A stretch of DNA of 64,000 nt from a virus, in the IMG/VR virus record IMGVR_UViG_3300042522_000315, positions 20,105-84,104 of that record; one strand, 5' to 3'. The notes under the pieces were generated by a model. That model had not been told where the DNA came from, did not search any database, and saw nothing but the letters and a program-made list of their open reading frames with translations. This document shows positions 42,389 through 42,471 of this stretch, in pieces. The position numbers were made by a program, and so were the translations under genes. Each line of letters starts with the position of its first letter. The stretch's first letter is position 1.

Positions 42389-42471
42389 GGCCACTTAGCC
42401 GAGGTCGGCTTCTACCCGACTAGACGTAACTGGAGCTGAAAATGGGGGTTCGAATCCCTCAGTGGTCGCCA
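42389..42471 (+). tRNA. Rearranged tRNA-Arg(TCT) with no D arm before the anticodon arm
   Basis: GGCCACT/AGTGGTC-G-CCA; GTCGG-CTTCTAC-CCGAC; GGGGG-TTCGAAT-CCCTC. Confidence 0.7.

What the first reader, a model, noticed from the sequence alone, without database searches (positions are those of the whole stretch)
42389..42471. tRNA-Arg(UCU) with rearranged topology: D-loop-like sequence lies 3' of the anticodon arm
Seen: normal acceptor stem, T arm and CCA, but only 8 nt (TAGCCGAG) between acceptor and anticodon stems. A 23-nt segment containing GTAACTGGA, which resembles an Arg D loop (G18 G19 A20), follows the anticodon arm. Known: A20 is a major ArgRS identity element. The same nonamer sits in the same place in the second Arg RNA at 48336. 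No canonical Arg tRNA is present in the window while the other 19 amino acids are covered, which argues these two are the functional Arg tRNAs. Inference: an alternative tRNA fold that standard scanners probably miss and that could evade host tRNA nucleases.
Basis: partly seen in the sequence, partly recalled or inferred. Interest (0 to 1): 0.88.

Follow-up and report, generated by a model that had tools for sequence, protein, structure and literature searches.

The report
Rewired phage arginine tRNA genes
Two genes in this lake-water T4-like phage very probably encode working arginine tRNAs whose inner parts are strung in a different order from the universal cloverleaf (the anticodon arm sits inside the D-stem and the D-loop follows it), a layout shared by more than 130 other phage tRNA genes, missed by a standard tRNA finder, and absent from every paper I could search.

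Summary
Window 42389-42471 (anticodon UCU) and 48336-48429 (anticodon ACG) have normal acceptor, anticodon and T arms and an encoded CCA. The D-loop motif GTAACTGGA lies 3' of the anticodon arm.

The D-arm is rewired, not missing. In 135 distinct relatives the linker before the anticodon arm pairs with the bases flanking the D-loop motif, with compensatory changes. The anticodon arm is therefore nested inside the D-stem, and UAACUGGA is an 8-nt bulge. A 15:48 (Levitt-type) tertiary pair also covaries.

Every Arg-anticodon member keeps A20, the main determinant for E. coli ArgRS. The rare Ile members have U there.

Indirect evidence points to a translation role:
- UCU plus ACG (ICG) would read 95% of the contig's Arg codons.
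- A complete, syntenic 167-kb relative has canonical tRNAs for 19 amino acids and no Arg tRNA other than these two.
- Across 73 arrays, rewired and canonical Arg genes rarely share an anticodon.

ARAGORN misses both genes. Rfam's tRNA model finds them only with loose filters.

No mature RNA or charging was shown, and nuclease evasion is untested. This scan has reported the same family on other genomes at least a dozen times. I found no paper describing it.

The parts
42389..42471 (+). Copy 1: rewired tRNA-Arg(UCU) gene, class B (8-nt 5' linker), with encoded CCA
   Evidence: Sequence. Model R1 62.0 bits, E 2.5e-15. Rfam RF00005 33.3 bits with loose filters only. ARAGORN makes no call.
42389..42395 (+). 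Copy 1 acceptor stem, 5' strand; pairs with 42461-42467. Discriminator G at 42468, CCA at 42469-71.
   Evidence: 7 bp including one G-U. All 7 pairs covary in the family.
42396..42401 (+). Copy 1 D-helix, 5' strand (U8 A9 G10 C11 C12 G13). G42401 pairs with C42425 and C42400 with G42426. C42399, G42398, A42397 and U42396 pair with G42435, C42436, U42437 and G42438.
   Evidence: RNAalifold on class B: G10:C in 8 sequences and A10:U in 4; C11:G in 11 and U11:A in 1. The U8-G and A9-U pairs never vary, so they are unproven.
42404..42420 (+). Copy 1 anticodon arm: 5-bp stem and loop CUUCUAC; anticodon UCU at 42411-42413
   Evidence: All five stem pairs covary.
42425..42438 (+). Copy 1: C-G (D-helix 3' strand, part 1), then the 8-nt D-loop bulge UAACUGGA at 42427-42434 (A14-like 42428, A15-like 42429, G18 G19-like 42432-33, A20-like 42434), then GCUG (D-helix 3' strand, part 2)
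   Evidence: The motif matches D-loops of canonical phage tRNA-Arg genes in the same arrays (AACTGGA).
42439..42443 (+). Copy 1 variable-loop-like linker AAAAU; U42443 is the 48-like partner of A42429
   Evidence: 15:48 covariation in the family.
42444..42460 (+). Copy 1 T arm (GGGGG / UUCGAAU / CCCUC)
48336..48429 (+). Copy 2: rewired tRNA-Arg(ACG) gene, class A with an extra variable-region hairpin. Acceptor 48336-42 with 48419-25, discriminator U at 48426, CCA at 48427-29.
   Evidence: Sequence. R1 73.2 bits, E 1.5e-18. RF00005 35.0 bits with loose filters only. ARAGORN makes no call.
48345..48349 (+). Copy 2 D-helix 5' strand and junction. G48345 pairs with C48382, C48346 with G48373, C48347 with G48372, and C48349 with G48368.
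   Evidence: Model alignment. Pair statistics.
48350..48366 (+). Copy 2 anticodon arm, loop CUACGAA; anticodon ACG at 48357-48359 (A34 would be deaminated to inosine in bacteria)
   Evidence: The A-to-I step is inferred from established knowledge of bacterial tRNA-Arg(ACG) and was not tested.
48372..48382 (+). Copy 2: G-G (D-helix 3' strand), D-loop bulge UAACUGGA at 48374-48381 (A20-like 48381), then C48382 closing the helix
48385..48398 (+). Copy 2 extra hairpin GGACA-GAAA-UGUCC in the variable region
   Evidence: Sixteen relatives carry it with compensatory stem changes (ACA/UGU, AUA/UAU, GUA/UAC, UCA/UGA, CCA/UGG, GCA/UGC) and mostly GNRA loops. Related contigs in RNA libraries show the GGGUA/UACCU version (table 3).
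48402..48418 (+). Copy 2 T arm (ACAGG / UUCGAAU / CCUGU)

Best explanation
Both loci are real, selected genes for arginine tRNAs (UCU reading AGA/AGG; ACG, presumably edited to ICG, reading CGU/CGC/CGA). They have a non-cloverleaf wiring.

Acceptor stem, anticodon arm, T arm and CCA are standard. The bases after U8 A9 run straight down into the anticodon stem and serve as one strand of the D-stem. The other strand is supplied by the bases after the anticodon arm. The D-loop UAACUGGA bulges out of that second strand just below the junction. The secondary structure is therefore a three-way junction: acceptor stem, T arm, and one long D-plus-anticodon helix.

Inferred: this helix has about the canonical length. 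U8, A14, the A15:U48 pair, G18 G19 and the T-loop are all kept. The RNA can therefore still fold into an L-shape. It would present A20 and C35 to the host ArgRS, be processed and carried like any tRNA, and decode the phage's Arg codons.

Shown here: conservation, covariation, anticodon restriction, the codon match, and complementarity with canonical Arg genes. Inferred: folding into an L, charging, and use on the ribosome.
For: 1. Family size and anticodon restriction. 135 distinct members were aligned. Their anticodons are ACG 82, TCT 34, TCG 6, CCT 4, plus Ile TAT 3, GAT 3 and CAT 1.

2. Structure.
- 96.4% of cells are paired against 64.8% in shuffles, with 0 of 500 shuffles as high. Versions with the partner slid by 1-3 columns give 39-51%.
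- D-stem core pair l1(-4):D1 is paired in 131 of 135 members (CG 117, AU 8, GC 3, UA 3).
- D-stem core pair l1(-3):l2(-1) is paired in 132 of 135 (CG 78, GC 41, AU 8, UA 3, GU 2).
- Class B, which includes copy 1, adds G10:C / A10:U and C11:G / U11:A.
- The ortholog in G002 differs from copy 1 by compensatory changes in the acceptor stem, the D-helix, the anticodon stem and the T stem.

3. Tertiary signal. Position 15 against the last linker base: A with U about 128 times, G with C 5, G with U 1, A with C 0 (Fisher 2e-8, not corrected for relatedness).

4. Identity. All Arg members have GGA (A20); Ile members mostly have GGU. A20 is the main determinant for E. coli ArgRS, together with C35 (PMC9976931).

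5. Codon demand. AGA 49.4%, CGT 27.5%, CGC 11.7%, CGA 6.6%, AGG 4.2%, CGG 0.7% of Arg codons in 80 ORFs.

6. Slot filling.
- G002 is 167,363 bp, CheckV 100% complete, with the same array order. It has 28 canonical tRNAs for 19 amino acids and no canonical Arg gene. It carries only the rewired UCU and ACG genes.
- Of 73 arrays, 31 have no canonical Arg gene, 38 have canonical Arg genes only with other anticodons, and 4 have one with the same anticodon. Fisher p is 0.003 for ACG and 0.002 for TCT.

7. Plausibility. The E. coli synthetase, EF-Tu and ribosome accept even a D-armless tRNA without adaptation (PMC11551756).
Against: - There is no direct evidence of a mature RNA, charging or decoding. 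The RNA-library contigs that cover relatives of copy 2 run on past the 3' end. They could be precursor RNA or contaminating DNA.
- The covarying D-stem core is short: two solid pairs in class A. The third pair, N10:l3.1, is paired in only 64-75% of members.
- In copy 1 the U8-G and A9-U pairs never vary. If they form, they would extend the acceptor helix and might change the geometry.
- Copy 2 and most class-A members have U73, whereas A/G73 is listed among Arg identity elements.
- The window's contig is about 50% complete.
- A few phages carry a rewired and a canonical Arg gene with the same anticodon: 4 of 73 arrays, plus Stenotrophomonas phage DLP6. The rewired form is therefore not always the sole decoder.
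- The covariation and Fisher tests are not corrected for shared ancestry.
Confidence: 0.78

Rival explanations
1. The RNAs are tRNA mimics that do not decode. They could be decoys or inhibitors that bind a host factor such as a tRNA-Arg-directed nuclease, ArgRS or a modification enzyme. They could also serve some other role that needs a tRNA-like shape, such as a primer or a regulator.
For: No expression or charging data exist. Some phages hold a canonical Arg gene with the same anticodon as well. Phage tRNAs are known to neutralise tRNA-targeting defences (titles and abstracts listed).
Against: - The anticodons diversify over four Arg isoacceptors and fill exactly the slots that canonical genes leave empty.
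- A complete relative has no other Arg tRNA among a set that covers the other 19 amino acids.
- The anticodons match the phage's own codon use.
- The encoded CCA, 7-bp acceptor stem, standard T arm and A20 are all kept.
Confidence: 0.1
2. The RNAs are truly D-armless tRNAs, as in animal mitochondria. The 7-8-nt linker is an unstructured D-replacement loop, and the GTAACTGGA segment is just a long variable region.
For: Rfam's tRNA model aligns them this way. RNAalifold on class A predicts only the three standard arms.
Against: - The linker covaries with the bases flanking the motif through all four Watson-Crick combinations.
- The motif equals a canonical Arg D-loop.
- The 15:48-type covariation and G18 G19 conservation argue for a D-loop/T-loop elbow, which mitochondrial D-armless tRNAs lack.
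Confidence: 0.05
3. The transcripts are cut and rejoined into a canonical cloverleaf tRNA, by intron-like or permuted-gene processing.
For: Permuted and split tRNA genes exist in some algae and archaea. T4-like phages carry RNA repair enzymes. Both points are from general knowledge and were not tested here.
Against: - The 5' and 3' acceptor strands are already in normal order. Only two inner blocks are swapped, so restoring the canonical order would need two cuts and two ligations.
- No bulge-helix-bulge or group I intron features were seen.
- The linear order itself forms a covarying nested structure. That is not expected if the order were only a processing intermediate.
Confidence: 0.02
4. 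The loci are decayed tRNA pseudogenes or assembly artefacts.
For: ARAGORN does not call them, and their Rfam scores are low.
Against: - 135 distinct sequences keep every helix through compensatory change.
- The same DNA is present in more than 20 lake metagenome runs and in isolated phages.
- Both copies are intact in syntenic relatives.
Confidence: 0.01

Closest known systems
Canonical class I bacterial and phage tRNA-Arg (Rfam RF00005), for example the ordinary Arg genes in related arrays (L041:3861-3939 ACG; L011:1483-1559 TCT)
   Same: 7-bp acceptor stem, U8 A9, 5-bp anticodon stem with the same loops, D-loop sequence AACUGGA with A20, an R15:Y48-type pair, T arm GGUUCGAAUCC, CCA, and Arg anticodons.
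   Different: The order of the inner blocks differs. The D-stem strand that leads into the anticodon stem comes first. The other D-stem strand and the D-loop come after the anticodon arm. The result is a three-way rather than a four-way junction, with the D-loop as a bulge rather than a hairpin loop.
D-arm-lacking mitochondrial tRNAs (for example metazoan mt-tRNA-Ser(AGY), nematode mt-tRNAs)
   Same: No hairpin lies between the acceptor and anticodon stems. Only a 7-8-nt stretch is found there.
   Different: The mitochondrial forms have lost the D-loop and the D/T elbow, and they work with co-evolved machinery (PMC7609411, PMC11551756). The phage genes keep a D-loop, G18 G19, A20 and a covarying D-stem, and they must work with ordinary bacterial machinery.
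Synthetic D-armless 'mini HisT' used by evolved E. coli (PMC11551756)
   Same: It is a non-cloverleaf tRNA that bacterial aaRS, EF-Tu and ribosome accept. This shows that such RNAs can function.
   Different: It is artificial, has no D-arm at all and is Y-shaped. It needed a pnp mutation to escape degradation. The phage family is natural and retains the D elements.
Circularly permuted and split tRNA genes (red alga Cyanidioschyzon, Nanoarchaeum); recalled from general knowledge
   Same: The gene order of tRNA segments departs from the mature cloverleaf order.
   Different: Those genes are processed into a normal cloverleaf. Here the termini are in normal order, and the unprocessed order itself carries the covariation.
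allo-tRNAs and 8/4 or 9/3 tRNAs of bacteria and phages (PMC5389517)
   Same: They are non-standard tRNAs found by metagenome mining, some of them in phage tRNA clusters.
   Different: Those still have the cloverleaf arm order; only stem lengths differ.

Membership tests
tRNA, canonical cloverleaf (Rfam RF00005) | 7-bp acceptor stem, discriminator and 3' CCA | tested here: met
   All 7 pairs covary.
tRNA, canonical cloverleaf (Rfam RF00005) | 5-bp anticodon stem and 7-nt loop with U33 and purine 37 | tested here: met
   Loops CUUCUAC and CUACGAA. The stem covaries.
tRNA, canonical cloverleaf (Rfam RF00005) | T arm with the GUUCRANYC-type loop | tested here: met
   GGUUCGAAUCC in both copies.
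tRNA, canonical cloverleaf (Rfam RF00005) | D hairpin (stem 10-13 with 22-25, loop 14-21) lying between the acceptor and anticodon stems | tested here: not met
   Only 7-8 nt lie there. Rfam aligns both copies with the D arm deleted. ARAGORN makes no call.
tRNA, canonical cloverleaf (Rfam RF00005) | Score at or above the family gathering threshold (29 bits) | tested here: met
   33.3 and 35.0 bits, but only with loose filters. Both are absent from the default scan.
tRNA-Arg identity (bacterial ArgRS substrate) | A20 in the D-loop, and C35 with G36 or U36 | tested here: met
   GGA in every Arg member. Anticodons are ACG, UCU, UCG or CCU. The identity rule is from PMC9976931. This is a sequence-level test only.
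tRNA-Arg identity (bacterial ArgRS substrate) | Discriminator A73 or G73 | tested here: inconclusive
   Copy 1 has G and copy 2 has U. In the first 70 members the counts are U 42, G 19, A 9.
tRNA-Arg identity (bacterial ArgRS substrate) | Actual arginylation | not testable with these tools
   Needs an in vitro charging assay or in vivo charge-sequencing.
Rewired (block-swapped) phage tRNA-Arg/Ile family, as defined by model R1 | Linker base -4 pairs with the first base of the D motif, and linker base -3 pairs with the base before the motif | tested here: met
   Copy 1: C42400:G42426 and G42401:C42425. Copy 2: C48346:G48373 and C48347:G48372. In the family these pairs are formed in 131 and 132 of 135 members, with all Watson-Crick types.
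Rewired (block-swapped) phage tRNA-Arg/Ile family, as defined by model R1 | High score to a model built without the window's sequences | tested here: met
   62.0 and 73.2 bits. Canonical tRNAs score at most 28.2 bits.
D-arm-lacking mitochondrial-type tRNA | No D-stem, no D-loop and no D/T-loop elbow | tested here: not met
   The D-loop motif, G18 G19, a covarying D-stem and 15:48 covariation are all present.
Circularly permuted tRNA gene | The 3' half is encoded upstream of the 5' half, so the acceptor strands are in reversed order | tested here: not met
   The acceptor 5' strand is at the gene's 5' end and the 3' strand plus CCA at its 3' end.

The most novel reading that the evidence does not exclude
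The rewiring is adaptive, not neutral drift. On this reading it produces a tRNA body that host ArgRS, EF-Tu and the ribosome still accept. That body would no longer be recognised by tRNA-directed nucleases or decay pathways that dock on the canonical D-arm or core. Those could be host defences or the phage's own host-shutoff enzymes. The phage would then keep Arg (and, in other phages, Ile) decoding alive while ordinary tRNAs are destroyed. If so, nature has already built a bacterial-cytosol tRNA scaffold outside the cloverleaf.
Probability: 0.25. Interest if true: 0.95.

Novelty: new variant of a known kind. Interest (0 to 1): 0.85.

Why it matters
Textbooks, and a 2024 paper (PMC11551756), state that all known bacterial tRNAs are cloverleaves and that armless or rewired tRNAs occur naturally only in mitochondria. 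If these genes make working tRNAs, that rule has a natural and widespread exception. It is used by phages of many lineages and sits in some bacterial tRNA arrays.

Practical consequences follow:
- Phage tRNA censuses are incomplete, and so are the codon-usage and host-prediction analyses built on them. Here an apparently Arg-less set of 28-29 tRNAs is in fact complete for Arg.
- tRNA finders need a second model for this layout.

The family also makes several questions directly testable. What do ArgRS, RNase P, TadA, EF-Tu and the ribosome really need from the tRNA core? Can core rewiring defeat tRNA-targeting immunity? Could such scaffolds serve as orthogonal tRNAs?

Tried and rejected
1. In-silico block transposition followed by ARAGORN. 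Native order gave 1 of 70 called; transposed order gave 70 of 70 called as tRNA-Arg. A control with the moved block shuffled was also called 70 of 70, so the test does not discriminate and is not used as evidence.

2. RNA evidence. Three freshwater metatranscriptome runs hold contigs of a relative's tRNA array. These include the copy-2 ortholog joined directly to tRNA-Cys. One contig overlaps copy 1 from 42408. All of these are assembled contigs that run on beyond the gene ends. They show neither mature ends nor strand, and DNA carry-over cannot be excluded. No A>G at 48357 was among the listed differences. None of this counts as support.

3. BLAST of short members against isolated phages finds few records, so it is a poor census tool.

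4. RNAalifold on class A returned only the three standard arms. The D-stem emerged only from segment-anchored mutual information and a given structure.

5. Two alternative pairings were considered and dropped. UCC of the linker with GGA of the motif shows no correlation with flanking bases. N10 with the U of the motif fits fewer members than N10 with the first base after GGA.

6. Several motif hits are not members by model R1, for example L024, L029, L096, L115 and the Lentzea terrae isolate locus L124.

7. No ArgRS gene (PF00750) was found in the contig, so there is no sign of a dedicated phage synthetase. The contig is incomplete, however.

8. Other odd tRNA-like genes in the window (43083-43174, 44087-44154, 46667-46748) do not match the rewired model.

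Full report
**What is there.** The window belongs to an 84,104-bp IMG/VR virus record that CheckV rates about 50% complete. It is a T4-like phage: it has a UvsX-like recombinase, a gp41-type DnaB helicase and a SegE-like homing endonuclease inside the tRNA array. Its DNA is present in more than 20 lake-water metagenome runs. A tRNA array spans 42.4-54.7 kb.

ARAGORN finds 29 tRNAs in the window and none for Arg or Tyr.

- Copy 1 (42389-42471): 7-bp acceptor stem, TAGCCGAG, anticodon arm with loop CUUCUAC, 23 nt holding GTAACTGGA, a standard T arm, G73, CCA.
- Copy 2 (48336-48429): acceptor stem, TAGCCCC, anticodon arm with loop CUACGAA, 36 nt holding the same nonamer plus a GGACA-GAAA-UGUCC hairpin, T arm, U73, CCA.

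Rfam's tRNA model misses both copies in the default scan of the window. With loose filters it scores them 33.3 and 35.0 bits, by deleting the D arm and opening a large insertion in the variable region.

**A large family, restricted to Arg (and a few Ile).** I scanned IMG/VR for the nonamer followed at non-canonical distance by the T-loop. Seventy-two distinct sequences parsed into the same architecture. All carry Arg anticodons: ACG 47, TCT 19, TCG 4, CCT 2.

A second scan did not fix the nonamer (CTACGAA, 26-50 nt, then the T-loop). It showed that the motif is really N-U-A-R-(1-3 nt)-G-G-A.

I built covariance model R1 from 34 class-A members, none of them from this window or its close relatives. 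R1 scores the two window copies 73.2 and 62.0 bits. The best canonical tRNA in the window reaches 28.2 bits, so the window holds exactly two members.

Searching all fetched loci gave 135 distinct members. Seven have Ile-type anticodons (TAT, GAT, CAT).

Members occur in isolated phages and are unannotated there. Examples are Stenotrophomonas phage DLP6, Xanthomonas phages BUDD and X1, and Rhizobium phage RHph_I1_18. Partial BLAST matches, not confirmed with the model, lie in Microbacterium phages Zooman and Pumpernickel.

The family is not strictly phage-only. The motif scan of 185,579 species genomes gave 18 loci, and the model confirmed 13 of them. All 13 lie in MAG contigs, and the 12 I scanned with ARAGORN hold several to 25 tRNA genes. 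One of these arrays is flanked by chlorite-dismutase-like, cytochrome c, HNH and TPR genes and looks chromosomal. Ten of 141 sampled genomes of that class carry one copy each. This patchiness fits mobile tRNA arrays.

**The D-arm is rewired, not lost.** I anchored the linkers on the stems and computed mutual information. The strongest signal joins the third base 5' of the anticodon stem to the base just before the motif. The next base 5' faces the first base of the motif.

Counts over the 135 members:

| Pair | Paired | Types |
|---|---|---|
| l1(-3):l2(-1) | 132/135 | CG 78, GC 41, AU 8, UA 3, GU 2 |
| l1(-4):D1 | 131/135 | CG 117, AU 8, GC 3, UA 3 |
| N10:l3.1 (next base 5' with first base after GGA) | 64-75% | UA, AU, GC, UG |

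In class B, to which copy 1 belongs, two further pairs covary: G10:C in 8 and A10:U in 4; C11:G in 11 and U11:A in 1.

On the 94 distinct rows of alignment A3, 96.4% of cells are paired against 64.8% in shuffles (0 of 500 shuffles as high). Versions with the partner slid by 1-3 columns give 39-51%. That alignment was fitted to the model, which favours the structure. The hand-anchored analysis and the MAFFT alignment give the same pairs.

The fold is therefore a three-way junction:

- the acceptor stem;
- the T arm;
- one long helix made of the D-stem stacked on the anticodon stem, with UAACUGGA as an 8-nt bulge in the ascending strand.

In copy 1 the D-helix pairs are G42401:C42425 and C42400:G42426, then C42399:G42435 and G42398:C42436. 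A42397:U42437 and U42396-G42438 never vary, so they remain unproven. In copy 2 the pairs are C48347:G48372, C48346:G48373, G48345:C48382 and C48349:G48368.

Described as blocks, a canonical tRNA reads S1 (1-9), S2 (one D strand plus the D-loop), S3 (the other D strand plus the anticodon arm), S4 (variable loop, T arm, 3' end). These genes read S1-S3-S2-S4.

**Signs that the L-shaped core survives (inference from sequence).** U8, A9, A14 and G18 G19 are essentially invariant, the T-loop nearly so. The bulge equals the D-loop of canonical phage tRNA-Arg genes in the same arrays.

Position 15 covaries with the last linker base before the T stem. A pairs with U about 128 times, G with C 5 times, G with U once, and A with C never. 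The G:C cases fall in class-B Arg members and in two Ile members. This is the pattern of the R15:Y48 Levitt pair.

The summed length of the D and anticodon helices is close to the canonical ten layers. I could not model the 3D structure.

**Evidence for function as tRNA-Arg (all indirect).**

1. Every Arg-anticodon member has A after GG, while Ile members mostly have U. A20 is the main determinant for E. coli ArgRS, together with C35 (PMC9976931).
2. In 80 long ORFs of the contig, Arg codons are AGA 49.4%, CGT 27.5%, CGC 11.7%, CGA 6.6%, AGG 4.2% and CGG 0.7%. UCU plus ACG/ICG would read about 95-99% of them.
3. G002 is the record behind L112. It is 167,363 bp, CheckV 100% complete, and has the same array order as the window. 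Its Rfam tRNA hits fall in two places only. ARAGORN finds 28 tRNAs for 19 amino acids there and no Arg. R1 finds the two rewired genes, UCU and ACG, with the ACG gene directly after tRNA-Cys. Its UCU gene differs from copy 1 by compensatory changes in all four helices.
4. G001 is a complete 161,561-bp phage with terminal repeats. It has rewired ACG and UCU genes plus a canonical UCG gene.
5. Across 73 de-duplicated arrays, 31 have no canonical Arg gene, 38 have canonical Arg genes only with other anticodons, and 4 have one with the same anticodon. A canonical ACG gene occurs in 3 of 58 arrays with a rewired ACG gene, against 6 of 17 without (p 0.003). The matching figures for TCT are 1 of 24 against 19 of 51 (p 0.002). 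The loci are partial and related by descent, so these p-values are rough.
6. Bacterial machinery tolerates even a D-armless tRNA (PMC11551756).

**What is not shown.** Mature RNA, charging and decoding are not shown. The RNA-library contigs are uninformative on these points.

The reason for the rewiring is unknown. The anticodon loops are ordinary, so escape from nucleases that read only the loop is unlikely. Escape from enzymes that dock on the D-arm or core is possible but untested.

**Novelty.** Eight full-text searches and four papers read gave no description of this layout. A 2024 paper states that all known bacterial tRNAs are cloverleaves. The library covers open-access papers and bioRxiv only.

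This scan's own notebook shows the same family reported on other genomes more than a dozen times. Those reports gave the same reading and also found no paper. One later check kept the observation at 93/100 and the bold reading at 30/100. I reached the block-swap reading before consulting the notes and re-derived the evidence here. The slot-filling statistics, the complete Arg-less relative and the 15:48 covariation did not appear in the brief notes I could read.

**Verdict.** The genes are real and under strong structural selection. They are best read as functional, core-rewired arginine tRNAs (confidence about 0.78). They are a new structural variant of tRNA and of high interest, pending an expression and charging experiment.

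Noticed in passing
window 52229-52302 and 46667-46748: Two suppressor-type tRNA genes sit in the array. One has anticodon CTA (amber; ARAGORN labels it 'Pyl'; Rfam tRNA 55.5 bits). The other is an 82-nt gene whose loop reads as TCA (opal) with a long variable arm. ARAGORN gives that one '?(Glu|SeC)' and Rfam tRNA-Sec scores only 30.1 bits. Together they may point to stop-codon read-through or recoding in this phage.
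   Followed up: no
window 43083-43174; also L119:4827-4918, L121:2559-2649, L123:6336-6425, L203:14808-14902: A 90-95-nt tRNA-Ile(UAU) with a normal D arm and a roughly 24-nt variable arm recurs in the same arrays that hold rewired Arg genes. A long variable arm is not expected for bacterial tRNA-Ile.
   Followed up: partly
window 45681-45963 versus L202:4026-4111: The complete relative G002 has a tRNA-Tyr(GTA) between tRNA-Thr and tRNA-Ile(GAT). The window has 283 nt there with no tRNA by ARAGORN or by sensitive Rfam, so this phage's array appears to lack Tyr.
   Followed up: partly
window 44087-44154: A tRNA-like element (Rfam tRNA 33.3 bits; not called by ARAGORN) has loop CCGAAAU and no CCA. 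It does not match the rewired model R1.
   Followed up: no
window 51945-52140: A manA RNA motif (RF01745, 58.5 bits, above its gathering score) is embedded in the tRNA array between tRNA-Met and tRNA-Gly.
   Followed up: no
window 44475-45083 (+) and 49500-50555 (-): A SegE-like GIY-YIG homing endonuclease gene lies inside the tRNA array. An ADP-ribosyltransferase (ADPrib_exo_Tox) gene lies on the opposite strand, about 1 kb downstream of copy 2.
   Followed up: no
L156:310-387, L156:6052-6128, L186:9034-9110, L122:717-793, L169:692-772, L188:2803-3088: These rewired members carry Ile-type anticodons (GAT, TAT, CAT). Most have GGU instead of GGA at the end of the D-loop bulge, so the base after G18 G19 tracks amino-acid identity.
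   Followed up: partly
L119 (MAG contig JAWVEB010000045.1), array 2091-5084; G005 and 9 other genomes of its class: A rewired tRNA-Arg(UCU) sits in a 25-gene tRNA array flanked by ordinary cellular genes (chlorite-dismutase-like, cytochrome c, TPR) and an HNH endonuclease. Ten of 141 sampled genomes of that class hold one copy, so the design also occurs in bacterial tRNA arrays.
   Followed up: partly
window 46496-46579 and 45170-45248; L202:2878-2964: Several otherwise canonical array tRNAs are over-long: Lys-UUU 84 nt, Pro-UGG 79 nt, and Lys-CUU 87 nt in the relative. Their Rfam scores are low (40.9 and 48.6 bits for the two window genes). The extra bases were not examined.
   Followed up: no
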